From Candidatus Iainarchaeum sp. (lineage in GTDB: Archaea; B1Sed10-29; WALL01): a DNA stretch of 64,000 bases. The stretch is taken from positions 20,667 to 84,666 of the forward strand of contig JAGMCR010000012.1 in assembly GCA_023129115.1 (NCBI GenBank). The letters run 5' to 3'. Made by a program: the position numbers and the translations under genes. This document shows, piece after piece, positions 2,828 through 43,466 of this stretch (position 1 is its first letter; each line of letters starts with the position of its first letter). A model generated the notes under the pieces. The model was given only the letters and a program-made list of their open reading frames with translations. It was not told where the DNA came from and ran no database searches.

Positions 2828-2940
2828 TTTCACAATTAGGGTTGCCTCTGGGCACCCTTGCGGTGCCCAAGCCTACCGCGCCACCTGGCGAATCCCCAAG
2901 GATTGTCGGGGCAGCCCAGGTTTGGGCTGCTTTGGACCCA
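2828..2940 (+). repeat. Modular hairpin element E1 (after tRNA-Pro)
   Basis: 43 nt (2873-2915) identical to the reverse complement of 11619-11661; ends with a copy of the tRNA 3' end GGACCCA (2934-2940). Confidence 0.85.
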
Positions 2941-3014
2941 CTTATTTTTCTCGGCAAGGCGTATACTCGCGCGTATATTAAGGCCTATTCCGTTTTCTGT
3001 TTGTGAGAAAAAAT

Positions 3015-3650
3015 ATGATAAAACAGCAAAAAGCCTGGGTGGGCCCCACCAAAGCCAGGCTAATAGCAAGGCTTATGGCGGACGGAGCCGTCTACAAAGT
3101 TAAGTCTAATTATACCATGAAGTATGAGTGCCAGGACATGAAATTGTTAGAGTCGTTCGCAAATGACTTCAAAGAAGTCTATGGCCTCAAGCCAAAGAAG
3201 GAGTGGAACAAATCCGGAAAGACGGGTAGACTGTTACCAGGTTACCGGGTTAGGAGCATAGATGCCTACAAAGACCTCGTGTCTTACAGCAGTTACTACT
3301 CAAGAAAATGGAGGGTGCCACTAGAAATAATTGGCGCTTCAAAGGATGTGCAGAAGTGCTTCGTCCAAGCATTCTTTGACGATGAAGGCACGGTTCTGAG
3401 AAAAGTCAACCTGCTTCGGATGTATTCTATAAACAAACGTGGGCTGGAAGATGTGGGGCTTCTTCTCAGGAGCTTTGGCATACCCCACAAAATCCGGCCG
3501 GGCTTTGGTCTAAAGCGGAATGTCTACGCCATCGAAGTTGTTGGTAGAGAAAAAGTGAGGAAATTCTACTTGACTTTTGGCTCGATGTGCCACAAAAAGA
3601 AGGCTGCCATGGAAAGCATTGTAACAAAAACTAATAAGCAAGCTTTTTAA
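3015..3650 (+). CDS. Free-standing two-motif LAGLIDADG homing endonuclease (intein/DOD type)
   Basis: ARLIARLMADGAV and FVQAFFDDEGTV motifs, LLRSFGI; visibly more AT-rich than flanks; no intein splicing blocks. Confidence 0.85.
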   Translation: MIKQQKAWVGPTKARLIARLMADGAVYKVKSNYTMKYECQDMKLLESFANDFKEVYGLKPKKEWNKSGKTGRLLPGYRVRSIDAYKDLVSYSSYYSRKWRVPLEIIGASKDVQKCFVQAFFDDEGTVLRKVNLLRMYSINKRGLEDVGLLLRSFGIPHKIRPGFGLKRNVYAIEVVGREKVRKFYLTFGSMCHKKKAAMESIVTKTNKQAF

Positions 3651-3678
3651 ACTATCAAACCTAAAAAACAGCTAGAAC

Positions 3679-3839
3679 CCCCGCTTAGCATAGCCCGGTA
3701 ATGCGGCCGGCTGTTTCTGAGAGAGACTCCGGTTTCCTCAGAGGTCATAGGAGGATTGATGCGTTCAACGCAACGCGTCGTTCGAGTCCGCATTGCAGAC
3801 ACCGGCAGATCCCCCGTTCAAATCGGGGAGCGGGGACCA
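3679..3839 (+). tRNA. tRNA-Tyr(GTA) with two introns (3715-3748 at 35/36; 3751-3800 at 37/38)
   Basis: C1-G72 acceptor CCCCGCT/AGCGGGG plus A73-CCA; anticodon arm GCCGG-CTGT|AG|A-CCGGC is restored after removing two BHB-bounded segments. Confidence 0.85.
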
Positions 3840-3857
3840 CATTCTTTTGGTGGAGCC

Positions 3858-4568
3858 ATGAGGCCATACACAAAAAAAGCCGCGAAGTACTATGATTTGC
3901 TTCATCACCGCGATGTCAAAGACGCGACGCGGCAGGTTAAATTGATGGCTAGCTTGTGGCGGAAGAAAACCAAACGGGTGCTCGACGCCGCGTGCGGGAC
4001 CGGGCGGCTGTCGATTCCGCTAGTGAAAATGGGCTACGAAGTGACTGGGTTGGACATCACTCCTGCAATGATGGAAGTCGCGAAGCAAAAAAAGGGCAGC
4101 GACAAGGTAAGGTTTGTTGTTGGGGATATGTGCACCTACAAAGGAAAGAAAAAGTTTGACGCGATTGTGTGCGGAAGCAACACCCTGTGCCATTTGATGA
4201 CGGACAAGAAGGCGGTCGCGTGCCTCAAGAACTTCCGGAAAAATCTTGTCAGGGGCGGGACCGTTGTTTTTGACTTGTGGAACTGTGAGAAATGGGGGTA
4301 CAGCCTGGACGGCAGGAAAACGGTCAGGGAAAAAGGCGTTACAGTGCACTACACCGCAAAGGACAGGATAGACAAGAAGGCAAACATCCACCAGTGGGAA
4401 GACCGCGCGAAAATCGATGACCACGGTGAAAAGCTTGAGCTGGTTTTCGCGGGAAGATTGAGGTGGAGGCCGGCGGACAAGTGGATTAAGATGCTGGAAA
4501 AAGCCGGGTTCAAACACCCTGGCGTGAGGTACGTGAAGGACAAGATTTACGTCTTCGCAAAGGCGTGA
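3858..4568 (+). CDS. Class I SAM-dependent methyltransferase
   Basis: VLDAACGTGRL motif I, GLDITPAM, GDM, LVRGG; ATG chosen downstream of the tRNA. Confidence 0.9.
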   Translation: MRPYTKKAAKYYDLLHHRDVKDATRQVKLMASLWRKKTKRVLDAACGTGRLSIPLVKMGYEVTGLDITPAMMEVAKQKKGSDKVRFVVGDMCTYKGKKKFDAIVCGSNTLCHLMTDKKAVACLKNFRKNLVRGGTVVFDLWNCEKWGYSLDGRKTVREKGVTVHYTAKDRIDKKANIHQWEDRAKIDDHGEKLELVFAGRLRWRPADKWIKMLEKAGFKHPGVRYVKDKIYVFAKA

Positions 4569-4616: not shown

Positions 4617-4690
4617 GCCCCTGTAGTGTAGTTGGTTTATCATCTGGGATTGTCGATCCCAGGACTCGGGTTCGAATCCCGGCGGGGGCG
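4617..4690 (+). tRNA. tRNA-Asp(GTC)
   Basis: Acceptor GCCCCTG/CGGGGGC, anticodon arm TGGGA-TTGTCGA-TCCCA. Confidence 0.95.
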
Positions 4691-4920
4691 CTGTCTCTGG
4701 GGGCTTTATGCCCCCAAGCCTAACGTGCCACCTGGCACCTGGCGAATTGCGCTAGGCAATTGCCGGGGCAAATCCCAAAGGATTGTCGGGGCATAACGTG
4801 AATCCCGCAGGACCTGGCGAATCCCACAGGATTGCCGGGGCACCTGGCGAATTTCCCAAAGGAAAACGCCGGGGCATTCTCGTTTGAGCTGAGTTTCAGC
4901 TGAAACCCGGCCCGGGCGCT
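4691..4920 (+). repeat. Modular hairpin element E2 with four nested/tandem CCTGGCGAAT...GCCGGGGCA units
   Basis: Units at 4731-4793 (interrupted by 4738-4770), 4813-4842 and 4843-4876; ends with a 13/15 copy of the tRNA-Asp 3' end (4906-4920). Confidence 0.85.
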
Positions 4921-4960
4921 CGGGGAGCCGTGTGCTCCCCTCCCCTCGTGGGTTCTAGTC

Positions 4961-5013
4961 TTCCATCGACGCTTTTCCACCGAGCGGCGGCCTTGTGCCG
5001 CCGTAGCAGAAAA
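4961..5013 (-). repeat. Second dispersed module (TTTTCTGYTAC-hairpin-CGCTCGGTGGAAAAGCGTYGATGGAA)
   Basis: Reverse complement matches 43343-43389 (25/26 in the core) with a different internal hairpin. Confidence 0.75.
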
Positions 5014-8948: not shown

Positions 8949-11602
8949 TTGGCATGAGGATTGTACAGAAAAAAATCGGGAGCGTTGAGTTCGGGATTAT
9001 GACGCCCGAGGTAACGCGCAAGATGAGCCAAATCAGGGTCGTGACGCCAGACACTTATGACGAGGACGGCTACCCGATTGAGGGCGGCCTGATGGACCTG
9101 CACCTCGGGGTGATTGACCCCGGGCTGCGGTGCAAGGCGTGCGGCGCCAGGATGGTGAGCTGTCCAGGCCACTTCGGGCACATTGAATTGGTCAGGCCAG
9201 TGGTGCACGTGGGCTACGTCAAAATGGTCTACACGCTGCTCAAGGCGACGTGCAAGAGCTGCGGCAGGCTCCTGCTGGACAAGAAGGAGCTCGGCCAGTA
9301 CAAGGAGTTCATCACCGAAGAAGAGCGCGAGATGGACGAGGACGCGGCGCTCGACATTATCCAGCGGACCAAGAAGAGCAACAAGTGCCCGCACTGCGAG
9401 GCGAAGCAGCCCAGCATCAAGCTCATCAAGCCCACCACTTTCTTTGAGGAGGACCAACGGCTGTTGCCGAGCGACATCCGCAGGAGGATGGAGCTCATCC
9501 CGGACAACGACCTGAAGCTCCTGGGCATCAACTACAAGGTCGCGAGGCCCGAGTGGGGCATATTGACTGTGCTGCCCGTGCCCCCAGTCACGACCAGGCC
9601 GTCGATTACGCTGGAGACCGGCGAGAGGAGCGAGGACGACCTCACGCACAAGCTCGTGGACATACTGAGGATTAACCAGAGGCTCAGGGACAACATTGCA
9701 GCCGGCGCCCCGCAACTGATTATTGAAGACCTTTGGGATTTGCTGCAGTACCACGTCACCACGTACTTCAATAATGAAGTTTCTGGAATTCCGCCTGCGC
9801 GGCACAGGAGCGGGCGGCCGCTCAAGACGCTGGCGCAGAGGCTGAAGGGCAAGGAAGGAAGGTTCAGGTACAACCTGTCAGGGAAGCGCGTCAACTTCTC
9901 GGCAAGGACCGTGATTTCCCCGGACCCGAACCTGTCGATTAACCAGGTCGGCGTGCCGCTGCCGGTCGCGGAGGAGCTGACGGTCCCCGAGCACGTGACC
10001 GAGTGGAACATGGCCAATATTAAGGAATATATAACAAGCGAGAATTACCCCAAGGCCAATTACGTAATCAGGCCGGACGGCAGGAGGAAGAAGGTCACTG
10101 AAGTCAACCGGCCCGACATCCTCGAGGAGCTCGAGCCGGGATACATCATCGAGAGGCAGCTCAAGGAGGGCGACATTGTCCTGTTCAACAGGCAGCCCTC
10201 GCTCCACAGGATTTCGATGATGGCGCACATCGTGAAAGTGCTGCCCGGCAAGACCTTCAGGCTCCACCCCGCCGTGTGCAAGCCGTACAACGCAGACTTT
10301 GACGGCGACGAAATGAACCTCCACGTGCCCCAAACCGAAGAGGCGCGGGCAGAGGCGTGGAAGCTCATGCTGGTCCAGAACCAGATTATCTCGCCGAGGT
10401 ACGGCGCGCCCATCATCGTTGGCGACCAGGACTTCGTGAGCGGCGGCTACCTGATGACGCACCGCGACATGAGCTTTTCGAGGAGGCTCGCGGAGCGCGT
10501 CCTCGTGGCAGCGGGGATAGTGAGGCCCCCGAGCCCTGACCTGCCCAACGACAGGTTCTCTGGAAAGCTTTTGTTCTCGCAGTGCCTGCCCAAAGGCCTC
10601 AACATCAGCTACGAGAACAAGATGCTCCGCAGGGGCTGCAAGAAGTGCGAGAAGCACAAGTGCGACGAGCACGACTCGTTCGTGGTCATCAGGAACGGCA
10701 AGCTCCTCAGGGGCGTAATCGACAAGGTGAGCTATCAGGGCATCCTGCTCGACACGATTTTCAGGGAGTTCGGCGCAGAGGCGGCGAGGGAGTTCATCGA
10801 CAAGAGCACCAAGATGGTCATCGTGGCGATGATGGACCACGGCCTCACGATTTCGGTGTCGGACTACGAAATCGACGAAGAGACCAGCAAAAAAATTGAC
10901 GCAGTGGTCGCCAAGTCCGAGGAAGAGGTCAACGACTTCATCGACAGGTACCGCAACGGCCAGCTCAAGCACATCCCCGGCAAGACGCTGCAGGAAACGC
11001 TCGAGGACAACATCATGGCAATCCTCGGCAGGGCGAGGATGGACAGCGGCGAGGCCGCTGGCGACTACCTCGGCGACAAGTCGTCTCCAATGATTATCAG
11101 CCGCGTCGGCGCAAGGGGCTCGATACTGAACGTGACACAGATGAGCGCCCTCGTGGGCCAGCAGGCGGTGCGTGGCGGCAGGGTTCTGCGTGGCTACCGC
11201 AACAAGTCATTGCCCCACTTCAAGGATGGGGACATCGGCATGCGGGCGCGCGGCTTTGTCGAGCACAGCTTCTACGATGGCCTGCTGCCGGTCGAGTACT
11301 TCTTCCACGCAATGGGTGGCCGTGAGGGTTTGGTCGACAAGGGCATCCGTACCGCCAAAAGCGGGTACATGCAGCGCAGGCTGATTAACGCGCTGCAGGA
11401 CCTGGTGCTCCGGGAGGACGGGACCGTGCGGGACGCGACGGACACAGTGGTGCAGTTCGTGTACGGCGAGGACGGCGTGGACCCGATGAAGTGCTACGGC
11501 AACAACGCCATCAAGGTGCGGGACGAGGTCATCTATTACGACGAGGTGGACAGGGGAGAAAGCACCGAGTTCGAGGAGACGGGCGGTGATGAGTATGACT
11601 AA
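8945..11602 (+). CDS. rpoA1: RNA polymerase subunit A' (Rpo1N)
   Basis: Catalytic YNADFDGDEMN, CPGHFGH; start may be ATG 8954. Confidence 0.97.
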   Translation: MIGMRIVQKKIGSVEFGIMTPEVTRKMSQIRVVTPDTYDEDGYPIEGGLMDLHLGVIDPGLRCKACGARMVSCPGHFGHIELVRPVVHVGYVKMVYTLLKATCKSCGRLLLDKKELGQYKEFITEEEREMDEDAALDIIQRTKKSNKCPHCEAKQPSIKLIKPTTFFEEDQRLLPSDIRRRMELIPDNDLKLLGINYKVARPEWGILTVLPVPPVTTRPSITLETGERSEDDLTHKLVDILRINQRLRDNIAAGAPQLIIEDLWDLLQYHVTTYFNNEVSGIPPARHRSGRPLKTLAQRLKGKEGRFRYNLSGKRVNFSARTVISPDPNLSINQVGVPLPVAEELTVPEHVTEWNMANIKEYITSENYPKANYVIRPDGRRKKVTEVNRPDILEELEPGYIIERQLKEGDIVLFNRQPSLHRISMMAHIVKVLPGKTFRLHPAVCKPYNADFDGDEMNLHVPQTEEARAEAWKLMLVQNQIISPRYGAPIIVGDQDFVSGGYLMTHRDMSFSRRLAERVLVAAGIVRPPSPDLPNDRFSGKLLFSQCLPKGLNISYENKMLRRGCKKCEKHKCDEHDSFVVIRNGKLLRGVIDKVSYQGILLDTIFREFGAEAAREFIDKSTKMVIVAMMDHGLTISVSDYEIDEETSKKIDAVVAKSEEEVNDFIDRYRNGQLKHIPGKTLQETLEDNIMAILGRARMDSGEAAGDYLGDKSSPMIISRVGARGSILNVTQMSALVGQQAVRGGRVLRGYRNKSLPHFKDGDIGMRARGFVEHSFYDGLLPVEYFFHAMGGREGLVDKGIRTAKSGYMQRRLINALQDLVLREDGTVRDATDTVVQFVYGEDGVDPMKCYGNNAIKVRDEVIYYDEVDRGESTEFEETGGDEYD

Positions 11603-12823
<1,221 letters not shown>

Positions 12824-18637: not shown

Positions 18638-18722
18638 GCTAGGGTGGCGGAATCCGGTTAACGCGCGCGCCTCGAGAGCGTGTGGGGGCAACCCCATGCA
18701 GGTTCAAATCCTGCCCCTAGCG
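18638..18722 (+). tRNA. tRNA-Ser(CGA)
   Basis: Acceptor GCTAGGG/CCCTAGC, anticodon arm CGCGC-CTCGAGA-GCGTG, long variable arm, G73. Confidence 0.93.
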
Positions 18723-18728
18723 CTCAAT

Positions 18729-18814
18729 GCGCATTAGGGCACTCGTCCGGCCTTGTGCCGGACAACGTGCCAGCTGAGTTTTCAGCTGGTTTGAACCTGC
18801 CCCTAGCGCTCAAT
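18729..18814 (+). repeat. Modular hairpin element E4 (after tRNA-Ser CGA)
   Basis: AACGTGCCAGCTGAGTTTTCAGCTGG followed by an exact 19-nt copy CCTGCCCCTAGCGCTCAAT (18710-18728 and 18796-18814). Confidence 0.85.
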
Positions 18815-43334: not shown

Positions 43335-43466
43335 CCAAGCCTTTTTCTGTTACTCGCTTCGCTCGCTCGGTGGAAAAGCGTTGATGGAAAACGCCGCCGG
43401 GCGGCCTTGCGCCGCCCTCGTCTAACGTGCCGCCTGAGTTTCAGGCGAAACTCACCACCCAGCGCT
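43335..43466 (+). repeat. Modular hairpin element E5 (after tRNA-Ser GGA)
   Basis: Contains the GGTGGAAAAGCG module, the GGCGGC-CTTGC-GCCGCC hairpin and CTAACGTGCCGCCTGAGTTTCAGGCG, then a copy of the tRNA 3' end CTCACCACCCAGCGCT. Confidence 0.8.

What the first reader, a model, noticed from the sequence alone, without database searches (positions are those of the whole stretch)
4731..4885. Nested insertion of a 30-nt hairpin unit into itself and into other hairpins
Seen: unit U (CCTGGCGAATCC-N4-GGATTG(T/C)CGGGGCA) occurs once in E1 (2884-2913), identically in E3 (11621-11650, minus) and four times after tRNA-Asp. Removing 4738-4770 restores an intact U (4731-4737 joined to 4771-4793). Removing the tandem pair 4813-4842 and 4843-4876 restores the hairpin AACGTGAATCC-CGCA-GGATTCTCGTT. 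E4 shows the empty site AACGTGCCA|GCTGAG exactly where E1, E2 and E3 carry U. Every insertion follows CA or GA and the unit ends in GCA. The inner stem-loop varies while the flanks are conserved. Inference: U is an independently mobile REP-like unit, reminiscent of bacterial TnpA(REP)/RAYT substrates, accumulating at a tRNA-linked hotspot in an archaeon.
Basis: partly seen in the sequence, partly recalled or inferred. Interest (0 to 1): 0.72.

Follow-up and report, generated by a model that had tools for sequence, protein, structure and literature searches.

The report
Nested 30-base mobile hairpins, DPANN archaeon
A 30-base hairpin-forming DNA unit in a tiny uncultured archaeon has been copied precisely into other hairpin repeats, into itself and once, in frame, into a helicase gene, so it behaves as one of the smallest mobile DNA elements known, although no enzyme that could move it was found.

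Summary
After tRNA-Asp, a 211-nt composite (4692-4902) is a two-hairpin repeat ("E") carrying four U-family hairpins. One sits inside another, and two lie in tandem inside a third hairpin (H2).

U is not merely part of E. It also lies in two other repeat families and in frame in a Hef helicase gene. There, 10 of 10 orthologues lack exactly these 30 nt. Removing exactly one unit restores the consensus of each host family.

The family has conserved ends (CCTGGC...GCCGGG + G-N-A tail). The inner stem varies with compensating changes. It occurs in 4 of 6 genomes of one DPANN family: 25 units in this genome, none found in its closest relative.

The RAYT idea is not supported. No Y1 transposase was found in 6 of 6 family genomes, there is no GTAG tag, and there are no inverted doublets. 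The tRNA linkage belongs to host element E.

My best reading is a strand-specific, single-hairpin mini-element moved in trans by an unknown enzyme. It enters next to a short motif resembling its own 3' tail. The main rival is template switching.

This scan noted similar nested hairpins in other DPANN genomes (e.g. e1-2869609). I class it as a new variant of a known kind.

The parts
4617..4691 (+). tRNA-Asp(GTC); host element E2 begins one base after it
   Evidence: ARAGORN; Rfam tRNA 56.2 bits
4692..4730 (+). E2 left part: hairpin 1 (CTGGGGGC..GCCCCCAAG) plus linker CCTAACGTGCCA
   Evidence: aligned with 20 empty E copies
4731..4737 (+). 5' piece (CCTGGCA) of a 30-nt host U unit split by a nested unit
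   Evidence: rejoined with 4771-4793 it is identical to the intact copy at C16:49258-49287
4738..4770 (+). 33-nt U-family unit (inner stem AATTGC/GCAATT) nested in the host U
   Evidence: DNA hairpin -9.6 kcal/mol, z -2.39
4771..4793 (+). 3' piece of the split host U
4794..4812 (+). 5' piece of hairpin H2 (TAACGTGAATCCCGCAGGA)
   Evidence: intact H2 copies at C1:65807 and C7 near 33450
4813..4842 (+). 30-nt canonical U unit inside H2
   Evidence: exact pattern match; DNA hairpin -8.0 kcal/mol, z -2.47
4843..4876 (+). 34-nt U-family unit (inner stem TTTCC/GGAAA), in tandem with the previous unit inside H2
   Evidence: DNA hairpin -10.4 kcal/mol, z -3.22
4877..4887 (+). 3' piece of H2 (TTCTCGTTTGA)
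   Evidence: in the fold of the composite the H2 arms pair across both inserted hairpins
4888..4902 (+). E2 hairpin 2 (GCTGAGTTTCAGCTG)
2843..2929 (+). E1 downstream of tRNA-Pro, with U at 2884-2913 at the base of hairpin 2
   Evidence: an E with U at the same site lies downstream of tRNA-Pro in G001
11604..11688 (-). E3 with U (11621-11650) between rpoA1 and rpoA2. It is flanked by an imperfect ~19-21-nt target duplication (11582-11602 / 11689-11707) and is absent from G002 and G001
18730..18788 (+). E4, an E-like copy with the empty site AACGTGCCA|GCTGAG. It is flanked by a 19-nt duplication of the tRNA-Ser 3' end (18710-18728 / 18796-18814)
43391..43447 (+). E5, an empty E copy behind an F-family repeat downstream of tRNA-Ser(GGA)

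Best explanation
**Shown**
- U is a family of 27-35-nt non-coding hairpin units.
- Its parts are an invariant 6-bp outer stem (CCTGGC pairing with GCCGGG, including a fixed T.G wobble), a variable inner stem-loop kept by compensating changes, and an unpaired 3' tail G-N-A.
- Whole units, always in the same phase, have been added precisely to at least six kinds of site: the base of hairpin 2 of element E, the arm of hairpin H2, the bulge of another U, loops of repeat families F and R2, and codons of a Hef gene.
- There is no target duplication of fixed length.
- Composites then spread further as passengers of their hosts. E and R2 themselves insert with long target duplications.

**Inferred**
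- The unit is mobilised in trans as a folded single strand (the top strand) by a structure-specific cutting and joining enzyme that is not yet identified.
- The enzyme cuts after the ...NA tail and joins the unit after a target motif that resembles that tail (...G/C-A). Preferred targets are single-stranded loops or stem junctions of other hairpin repeats.
- This is the logic of IS200/IS605 and REP elements, but with one hairpin and without a recognisable Y1 transposase.
For: **Insertion events**
- Hef: 1 of 11 aligned orthologues (G000 only) has the 10 extra residues. The DNA shows exactly 30 extra nt against G002 and G001.
- Paralogous uninterrupted sites exist for E, F and R2, where removal of exactly 30 nt restores the family sequence.
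- Nests: U in U, present in two copies, and an H4-like hairpin in U at C1:64637.

**Independence from E**
- G002 has 23 empty E junctions and 0 U. G000 has 24 empty junctions and 25 U.

**Fixed ends**
- No permuted or orphan pieces were found in G000, apart from the split hosts and one slippage pair.

**Selected structure**
- 17 distinct variants from 4 genomes all fold as one hairpin.
- 95.7% of cells are paired against 88.6% in shuffles (0 of 500 shuffles reach this).
- Two pairs show compensatory types: UA 10 / CG 7, and CG 7 / GC 6 / UA 4.
- T3.G30 is a wobble pair in 17 of 17 variants.

**Strand asymmetry**
- The top strand folds better than the bottom strand as DNA: -4.5 against -3.3 kcal/mol, and -8.0 against -6.7.

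**Target resembles the tail**
- In 25 non-tandem contexts, the left flank shares 3 or more terminal nt with the unit's 3' end in 8 contexts, and 1 or more in 21.
- At random genome positions these frequencies are 1.7% and 22%. Related contexts are not independent.

**Where insertions land**
- Insertion points fall in or next to loops and stem bases of the natural empty sites.
Against: **No enzyme found**
- Y1_Tnp: 0 of 6 family genomes.
- Serine resolvase: 0 of 5. IS110: 0 of 5. DDE_3: 0 of 5.
- No reverse transcriptase and no Cas1 in G000.
- Only a sub-threshold DDE fragment in G000.
- TnpB genes (4 in G000) do not track U across genomes, and their ends share nothing with U by blastn.
- A tyrosine recombinase occurs in G000 and G001 only, not near any U, and G003 and G004 have U without it.

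**Other weaknesses**
- All genomes are incomplete MAGs (84-98%).
- The flank-tail identity varies in length (0-7 nt), which also fits microhomology-driven copying.
- Many copies are not independent events, because composites travel with E and R2.
- No intermediate and no presence/absence polymorphism has been observed.
Confidence: 0.5

Rival explanations
1. Enzyme-free copying by template switching. A nascent strand stalls in a hairpin-rich repeat and ends in ...GCA or ...GGGGA. It mispairs with the 3' tail of a U in a tandem array elsewhere, copies the next unit, and returns by the same microhomology. The result is one added unit flanked by a short direct repeat of variable length.
For: - The identity between the left flank and the U tail is variable in length (0, 1, 2, 3, 4, 5, 7 nt) and far above random expectation.
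- Tandem donor arrays exist.
- One clear slippage duplication in a different phase lies at C7:33476-33535.
- Most targets are hairpin repeats.
- No transposase was found.
Against: - Apart from that one pair, all units are in the same phase with the same ends. Pure template switching does not predict this.
- 4 of 25 non-tandem contexts have no flank identity and 10 have only 1 nt.
- The invariant outer stem, the fixed T.G wobble and the compensated inner stems across three genera point to selection on a recognised structure.
- The 28-nt core is identical in G000 and G001, although their Hef proteins are only 77% identical.
Confidence: 0.25
2. U is not mobile by itself. It is an optional middle hairpin of E-type elements and of F and R2. 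It spreads only when those hosts transpose (with long target duplications) or recombine. 'Empty' hosts are deletion derivatives, and the Hef copy is a one-off repair accident.
For: - E1 and E3 carry the identical U, and E3 is a whole-element insertion.
- R2+U is inserted as one piece at C15 with a ~47-nt duplication.
- The H2[U,U'] block recurs in at least 5 E copies with different hairpin 1.
- U, H2 and H3 share the inner GAATCC..GGATT core and occupy the same slot of E.
Against: - The Hef insertion is exactly one unit in a unique gene.
- The same unit type sits in at least six unrelated sequence contexts, including inside itself.
- G002 has 23 empty E and no U.
- 30 of 45 parsed E copies are empty with a seamless consensus junction.
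Confidence: 0.1
3. U is kept mainly because it works as a strand-specific RNA or DNA signal. It could be a protein-binding hairpin, a 3'-end or stability element in tRNA trailers and operon spacers. Its copy number would then reflect function and not selfish spread.
For: - Compensated stems and the fixed wobble on one strand.
- U has the same orientation as host E. E is co-oriented with the upstream feature in 33 of 49 cases by crude gene calling.
- Many E copies lie directly behind tRNA genes.
Against: - No Rfam family matches.
- E3 with its U is antisense to the rpo operon.
- A functional signal does not explain insertion into a coding sequence or into other copies of itself.
- The closest relative has none.
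- This reading does not exclude mobility.
Confidence: 0.1
4. The nested region is an assembly artefact of short repeats.
For: - Repeats break the run contigs between 4715 and 4905, and no single contig spans the region.
- Several U loci sit at contig ends.
Against: - A second copy of the same nest with base differences lies at C2:19729-19900.
- Contigs from three runs cover the U-in-U nest with 0-1 differences.
- The same architecture rules recur in G001, G003 and G004.
Confidence: 0.02

Closest known systems
Bacterial REP / REPIN elements mobilised by RAYT (Y1 HUH) transposases (PMC2817692 and PMC3116915, passages read; preprint 10.1101/2021.07.10.451892, passage read)
   Same: - 20-40-nt imperfect palindromes.
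- Stems conserved by complementary changes.
- Clustered into mosaics.
- Non-autonomous, with no target duplication.
- Strand-specific hairpin logic.
   Different: - No GT(A/G)G or CGTC head.
- No RAYT or any Y1 gene in 6 of 6 family genomes.
- Units are co-oriented tandems and nests, not inverted doublets.
[quoted passage not shown]
- One copy lies inside a gene.
Small dispersed repeats (SDR, 21-27 nt) of heterocyst-forming cyanobacteria (Elhai et al. 2008, Genome Res 18:1484). The paper is not held; it was seen only in reference lists, and its content here is recalled
   Same: As recalled: very small mobile repeats, nested in one another and in larger repeats, placed so that hairpins are preserved, with no known transposase.
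   Different: - Different domain of life and unrelated sequence.
- Whether target rules match could not be checked, because the paper could not be read.
Small mobile repeats SMR-A/SMR-B of Haloquadratum walsbyi (PMC3119063, passages read)
   Same: - Archaeal and transposase-free.
- No target duplication.
- Strong preference for inserting into palindromes of other mobile elements.
- Mode of mobilisation called enigmatic.
   Different: - SMRs are 80-110 bp with prominent terminal inverted repeats.
- Their targets are PATEs and IS605-type elements.
- U is about 30 nt and a single hairpin, and its hosts are E, F and R2 repeats.
Mobile GC clusters of yeast mitochondrial DNA, e.g. GC42 (PMC4478555, passages read)
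   Same: - 30-50-nt palindromic units whose hairpin is under constraint.
- A putative 2-nt flanking repeat.
- Merging and shuffling of units into composites.
- Unknown mechanism.
   Different: - Organelle genome.
- AG flanks.
- Reverse transcriptase and intron endonucleases are available there; none was found here.
Rickettsia palindromic elements (RPE), selfish DNA inside protein-coding genes
   Same: In-frame insertion of a palindromic repeat into an intact, conserved gene. Here it is 10 residues in a linker of Hef.
   Different: - RPEs are about 100-150 bp.
- Only one gene insertion was found here.
IS200/IS605-derived PATEs
   Same: - No terminal inverted repeats are needed.
- No target duplication.
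- Hairpin-dependent and single-strand-specific.
- The target motif lies 5' of the element.
   Different: - PATEs have two subterminal hairpins and depend on TnpA.
- U has one hairpin.
- TnpA was not found.
- The ends of the four TnpB elements in G000 are unrelated to U.

Membership tests
REP/REPIN-RAYT | Short (20-40 nt) imperfect palindrome repeated many times, mostly extragenic | tested here: met
   25 pattern matches in G000, all hairpins. One copy is intragenic.
REP/REPIN-RAYT | Conserved GT(A/G)G or CGTC tetranucleotide head next to the palindrome (PMC2817692, PMC3733652) | tested here: not met
   All units start with CCTGGC and end with GGGG-N-A. No GTAG or CGTC head is present.
REP/REPIN-RAYT | A cognate RAYT (Y1 HUH, Pfam PF01797) gene in the genome, flanked by two inverted REPs | tested here: not met
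   PF01797 in 0 of 6 family genomes (completeness 84-98%). It is present in 2 of 41 relatives, both without U. The MAGs are incomplete, so absence is not proven.
REP/REPIN-RAYT | Units organised as inverted doublets (REPIN) or alternating BIMEs | tested here: not met
   Adjacent units are direct tandems or nests in one orientation.
IS200/IS605-type PATE | Two subterminal hairpins (left and right end), a fixed 5' target tetranucleotide, no target duplication, and TnpA in trans | tested here: not met
   U is a single hairpin. The left flank ends mostly in A (21 of 25 contexts share at least 1 nt with the tail) but has no fixed tetranucleotide. No fixed duplication. No TnpA.
MITE (DDE transposon derivative) | Terminal inverted repeats matching a transposon, a fixed-length target duplication, and a size of usually 50 nt or more | tested here: not met
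   The 6-nt ends are inverted-repeat-like, but flank identity ranges from 0 to 7 nt. The size is 27-35 nt. DDE_3 was found in 0 of 5 genomes, and DDE_Tnp_1 only as a sub-threshold fragment.
Haloquadratum SMR | Transposase-free, no target duplication, inserted into palindromes of other mobile elements | tested here: met
   This is functional resemblance only. Size (80-110 bp against 30 nt) and sequence differ, so U is not a member by descent.
Archaeal bulge-helix-bulge mini-intron | Two 3-nt bulges on opposite strands separated by a 4-bp helix at the ends of the inserted piece | tested here: not met
   Predicted folds show one continuous helix with a single 1-nt bulge on the 5' arm. Judged by eye against the recalled definition.
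Cyanobacterial SDR | 21-27-nt repeats nested in each other and in hairpins (recalled) | not testable with these tools
   The paper is not held, and no SDR sequences were available for comparison.

The most novel reading that the evidence does not exclude
U, with its relatives H2, H3 and H4, would be a minimal class of archaeal mobile DNA: a single strand-specific hairpin of about 27 nt plus a 3-nt tail. It is moved either by an enzyme family not yet linked to transposition or by no dedicated enzyme at all. The element's own tail defines where it lands. Such elements would build the intergenic 'mosaics' of DPANN genomes and occasionally lengthen proteins in frame.
Probability: 0.3. Interest if true: 0.8.

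Novelty: new variant of a known kind. Interest (0 to 1): 0.6.

Why it matters
**Size limit.** At about 30 nt, U is below the size that repeat and MITE finders report, and is among the smallest units for which insertion can be shown directly. The proof is a unique gene with 10 empty orthologues.

**A missing enzyme.** The hairpin, strand and target rules of REP and IS200/IS605 elements can exist in archaea, and in genomes where no Y1 transposase is detectable. Either a new enzyme awaits discovery, or hairpin repeats can spread by replication errors alone.

**Genome and annotation consequences.**
- It helps explain how very compact DPANN genomes acquire their mosaic spacers.
- Composite hairpin arrays behind tRNA genes and inside operons should not be read as single RNA genes.
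- Proteins can gain loops from such elements.

Tried and rejected
**RNA family and structure tools**
- Rfam gave no family on E, U or the C1 nest.
- RNAalifold on the MAFFT alignment of E found only 4 pairs, because loops of different length were misaligned. I therefore did not build a covariance model.

**Wider sequence searches**
- Canonical U gave 0 hits in viral contigs and 0 in JGI metagenome contigs.
- E gave 0 hits in viral contigs. It gave 5 metagenome loci from a related organism, with no U in the stretches held.

**Run contigs**
- No contig spans 4715-4905.
- No joint skips a U unit. Contigs cannot show the absence of rare variants, so nothing follows about polymorphism.
- One joint, 4905>4961 (skips 55 nt, shorter side 22 nt), may come from a paralogous locus.

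**Candidate enzymes**
- TnpB: the ends of the four elements share nothing with U or E. TnpB above cut-off occurs only in G000.
- Tyrosine recombinase in a low-GC island on C12: no U nearby, and it is absent from G003 and G004, which have U. I kept it only as a weak lead.

**Motifs judged by eye**
- Bulge-helix-bulge intron and kink-turn readings of U were judged against recalled definitions and dropped.

**Orthologous and orientation checks**
- The orthologous site of the C13 R2+U copy is not comparable, because the intervening DNA differs in G001 and G002.
- The E orientation test used crude gene calling and gave only a moderate bias, 33 of 49.

**C1 nest**
- The overlapping 193-aa ORF has no Pfam family. 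The neighbouring ORF has a TBP domain that ends 21 nt before the nest.

**Literature**
- Elhai et al. 2008 could not be read.
- One search was rejected for a term that was too long.
- A first search for SDR papers returned only irrelevant hits.
- Searches for DPANN + MITE + palindromic and RAYT + archaea + REP found no description of such units in DPANN. Supplements were not consulted.

Full report
**Setting**

The window is C4:20667-84666 of a 1.25-Mb, 19-contig assembly with 56% G+C, estimated 88.6% complete. Its relatives have 0.3-1.3-Mb genomes. A record of the same genus is titled 'Nanobdellati archaeon', so this is a DPANN-type archaeon.

**Observation**

tRNA-Asp (4617-4691) is followed at 4692 by a copy of a two-hairpin repeat that I call E. 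An E copy consists of:
- hairpin 1;
- the linker CCTAACGTGCCA;
- hairpin 2, GCTGAGTTTCAGCTG.

Between linker and hairpin 2, this copy holds 157 nt, in this order:
- CCTGGCA (4731-4737);
- a 33-nt unit (4738-4770);
- the rest of a 30-nt unit (4771-4793);
- the 5' piece of hairpin H2 (4794-4812);
- a 30-nt unit (4813-4842);
- a 34-nt unit (4843-4876);
- the 3' piece of H2 (4877-4887).

Points that support the reading of these as nested insertions:
- The rejoined split unit is identical to an intact copy at C16:49258-49287.
- The rejoined H2 is one base pair shorter than the two intact H2 copies.
- U also lies in E1 (2884-2913) and E3 (11621-11650, minus strand).
- The pattern is far above chance: 3 exact matches against 0.07 expected in the window. 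There are 25 matches genome-wide, with 0 for the reversed control.
- A second copy of the whole nest, with base differences, lies at C2:19729-19900.
- Contigs from three runs of one study cover the U-in-U part with 0-1 differences. No contig spans the whole composite, and one run may be the source of the assembly.

**What U is**

The general pattern (CCTGGC-R-A, 10-20 nt, G-Y-CGGGG) finds the following among the 31 genomes held for the class:

| Genome | Units found |
|---|---|
| G000 | 25 |
| G001 (same genus) | 9 |
| G004 (another genus) | 3 |
| G003 (another genus) | 2 hairpin units, plus 2 coding-like chance hits |
| G002, G005 | 0 |
| G023, G026 | one non-hairpin hit each |

- The canonical form occurs in only one other species genome out of 185,579, a MAG of the same genus.
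- Seventeen distinct variants all fold as one hairpin.
- The six outer pairs never vary and include a T.G wobble in 17 of 17 variants.
- Two inner pairs switch between Watson-Crick types: UA 10 / CG 7, and CG 7 / GC 6 / UA 4.
- 95.7% of cells pair, against 88.6% in shuffles, and 0 of 500 shuffles reach the observed value.
- As single-stranded DNA, three of four window units fold better than shuffles (z -2.4 to -3.2). The fourth, the GTC variant, does not (z -0.57).
- The top strand folds better than the bottom strand.
- The whole composite folds at -56.5 kcal/mol (z -5.7), with the H2 arms pairing across both inserted hairpins.
- H2 and H3 share the inner GAATCC..GGATT core with U and occupy the same slot in E. 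H4 occupies that slot too, with a different inner stem (ACATCC..GGATG). I treat them as one superfamily of hairpins with different outer stems.

**Evidence that U moves on its own**

(i) *Hef gene.* At C18:50591-50620 a unit lies in frame, in sense orientation, in a 737-residue Hef helicase-nuclease gene.
- Of 11 aligned orthologues, only G000 has the 10 extra residues. This includes the same-genus genomes G002 (91% identity) and G001 (77%).
- The DNA differs by exactly 30 nt.
- The site aligns with a naturally longer linker just before the IVFTNYR strand of the solved P. furiosus Hef helicase, 1WP9. The insert is therefore probably tolerated.

(ii) *Other repeat families.* U lies in family F (C2:6130) and family R2 (C13:43048, C15:53986). 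Paralogous copies of F (C12:40080, C15:23101, C2:19360) and R2 (C9:70697) are uninterrupted exactly at the insertion point. Many E copies are too.

(iii) *Nests.* A third nest exists at C1:64637-64696. It is a U split after its eighth base by a 30-nt H4-like hairpin.

(iv) *Independence from E.* G002 has 23 empty E junctions and no U. G000 has 24 empty junctions.

(v) *Other genomes.* In G001, G003 and G004, U variants sit at two recurrent positions of F-like repeats and in E-like repeats.

*Caveats.*
- Many copies are passengers. E3 is a whole-element insertion absent from G002 and G001, with a 19-21-nt target duplication.
- R2+U at C15 is absent from the G002 site and has a ~47-nt duplication.
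- The H2[U,U'] block recurs in several E copies.
- Of 45 E copies parsed, 30 are empty, 3 have a short odd spacer, and 8 carry U-family units. The remaining four have a middle hairpin without U: one intact H2, two H3 and one H4.

**Insertion rules**

- Removing exactly one unit restores every host, so there is no target duplication of fixed length.
- All units are in one phase. The only exception is a 30-nt slippage pair at C7:33476-33535.
- The last bases of the left flank tend to repeat the unit's own 3' end. This was measured over 30 distinct contexts, 25 of them not tandem.
  - 8 of the 25 share 3 or more nt: lengths 7, 5, 5, 5, 4, 3, 3, 3.
  - 21 of the 25 share 1 or more nt.
  - At 200,000 random genome positions the frequencies are 1.7% and 22%.
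  - Some contexts are related, so these are not independent trials.
- Folding natural empty sites places the insertion points in or next to loops or stem bases. These are the E hairpin 2 arm, the H2 arm just after its loop, the U bulge, the F loop and the R2 loop. The Hef site is unstructured.

**Search for a mobilising enzyme**

| Family | Result |
|---|---|
| Y1_Tnp (PF01797) | 0 of 6 family genomes; present in 2 of 41 relatives (G025, G031), which lack U |
| Serine resolvase | 0 of 5 |
| IS110 | 0 of 5 |
| DDE_3 | 0 of 5 |
| Reverse transcriptase, Cas1 | 0 in G000 |
| DDE_Tnp_1 | one sub-threshold fragment |
| TnpB | four genes in G000 only; ends unrelated to U |
| Tyrosine recombinase | a 389-residue ORF in a low-GC island of G000, and a partial one in G001; not near U; not found in G003 or G004 |

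All of these are incomplete MAGs, so absence is not proven.

**Mechanism**

The following features are those of single-strand, hairpin-guided elements such as IS200/IS605 and REP:
- fixed ends;
- one conserved strand-specific hairpin;
- no fixed duplication;
- entry into loop-like sites;
- a target that resembles the element's own tail.

With a single hairpin, one recognition surface would have to read both the left (target) and right (tail) cut sites. That would explain why the two look alike. I therefore favour trans-mobilisation of the folded top strand by an unidentified enzyme (0.5).

The main rival is copying by template switching from tandem arrays (0.25). It explains the variable-length flank identity and the lack of an enzyme. 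It does not explain the constant phase or the conserved, compensated structure.

Lower-ranked rivals are pure hitch-hiking with host elements (0.1) and a mainly functional RNA or DNA signal (0.1). Assembly artefact is unlikely (0.02).

**Comparison with what is known**

- *REP/REPIN-RAYT.* U works like these elements but fails three defining features: the head motif, the RAYT gene and the doublet organisation. [quoted passage not shown]
- *Haloquadratum SMRs.* These are the closest archaeal analogue. They are transposase-free, cause no duplication, target palindromes of other elements, and their mechanism is called 'enigmatic'. They are 80-110 bp (PMC3119063, passages read).
- *Yeast mitochondrial GC clusters.* They share the size range, hairpin constraint, merging of units and unknown mechanism (PMC4478555, passages read).
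- *Cyanobacterial SDRs* (Elhai 2008) are recalled as the nearest in size and nesting, but the paper could not be read.
- *Rickettsia RPEs* (recalled) parallel the in-frame gene copy.
- A MITE census notes that DPANN genomes have among the highest MITE densities in archaea (PMC11602168, passage read).
- My two literature searches found no description of such 30-nt units in DPANN. Supplements were not consulted.

**Earlier notes of this scan**

- Notes on another piece of this genome describe E and its long target duplications (e1-5002131, -133, -148, -149). I confirmed that behaviour at E3, E4, R2 and in G002.
- Notes on other DPANN genomes describe similar nested hairpin modules and an in-frame gene insertion (e1-2869609, e1-2844601, e1-1066091, e1-1067006, e1-2773824). 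The phenomenon therefore recurs across DPANN in this scan.

**Verdict**

- It is unsupported on RAYT and misattributed on the tRNA hotspot.
- I class U as a new variant of a known kind. Interest is 0.6.

Noticed in passing
window 11582-11707: E3 sits exactly where rpoA1 and rpoA2 overlap (ATGAATAA) in G002 and G001. An imperfect 19-21-nt duplication keeps both the rpoA1 stop and the rpoA2 start. The element is antisense to the operon.
   Followed up: partly
window 18710-18814: E4 is flanked by a 19-nt duplication of the 3' end of tRNA-Ser (CCTGCCCCTAGCGCTCAAT). E5 at 43391-43447 follows an F-family repeat behind tRNA-Ser(GGA), with a similar duplicated tRNA end. In all, 4 of the 7 tRNA genes in the window are followed by an E copy.
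   Followed up: partly
L031 1580-1900 (G002:C8): In the closest relative, tRNA-Asp is followed by a small 66-residue, hydrophobic-looking ORF, then by an empty E flanked by a ~38-nt direct repeat of the ORF's end. The two genes between tRNA-Pro and tRNA-Asp in the window (3003-4568) are missing there.
   Followed up: no
L091 640-745 (G000:C15:53940-54045) and L090 (C13): Repeat family R2 (about 105 nt including its U) is inserted with a ~47-nt duplication of a gene start. The G002 orthologous site is empty. So at least two small element families besides U insert with long target duplications.
   Followed up: partly
G000 C13:134192, C3:79611, C3:10561, C3:102282: Four TnpB-like (Cas12f1-like_TNB) ORFs form two diverged pairs (79% and 84% DNA identity). 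No TnpA was found. No TnpB above cut-off occurs in the five other family genomes.
   Followed up: partly
L102 5000-18000 (G000:C12:75000-88000): A low-GC (0.40-0.52) island holds a 389-residue tyrosine recombinase, a 982-residue subtilase, a TFIIB-repeat ORF and a PadR regulator. It is probably an integrated element.
   Followed up: partly
L099 74-716 (G000:C1:63973-64615): A TBP-domain ORF of 123 residues shows only one TBP repeat by Pfam, and an overlapping 96-residue ORF lies upstream in another frame. This may be a frameshifted or split TBP gene. The nested U composite lies 21 nt after its stop.
   Followed up: no
window 4905-4961: One run contig joins 4905 to 4961, skipping 55 nt between E2 and the F-family repeat (about 4948-5012). 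This is either a population variant lacking another small module or a paralogous locus. The shorter side of the joint is only 22 nt.
   Followed up: no
G000 C1:62089-62123 and C5:68737-68767: Two E copies have two hairpin-2 variants in direct succession (GCTCAGGTCTGGGCTGAGTTTCAG..), as if hairpin 2 were itself duplicated or nested.
   Followed up: no
C18:50591-50620 and rows: The 28-nt core CCTGGCAAATCCCAAAGGATTGCCGGGG is identical in the Hef and R2 copies of G000 and in three G001 copies. It contains no stop trinucleotide on either strand. With a length of 30 nt, it is therefore readable in all six frames.
   Followed up: partly
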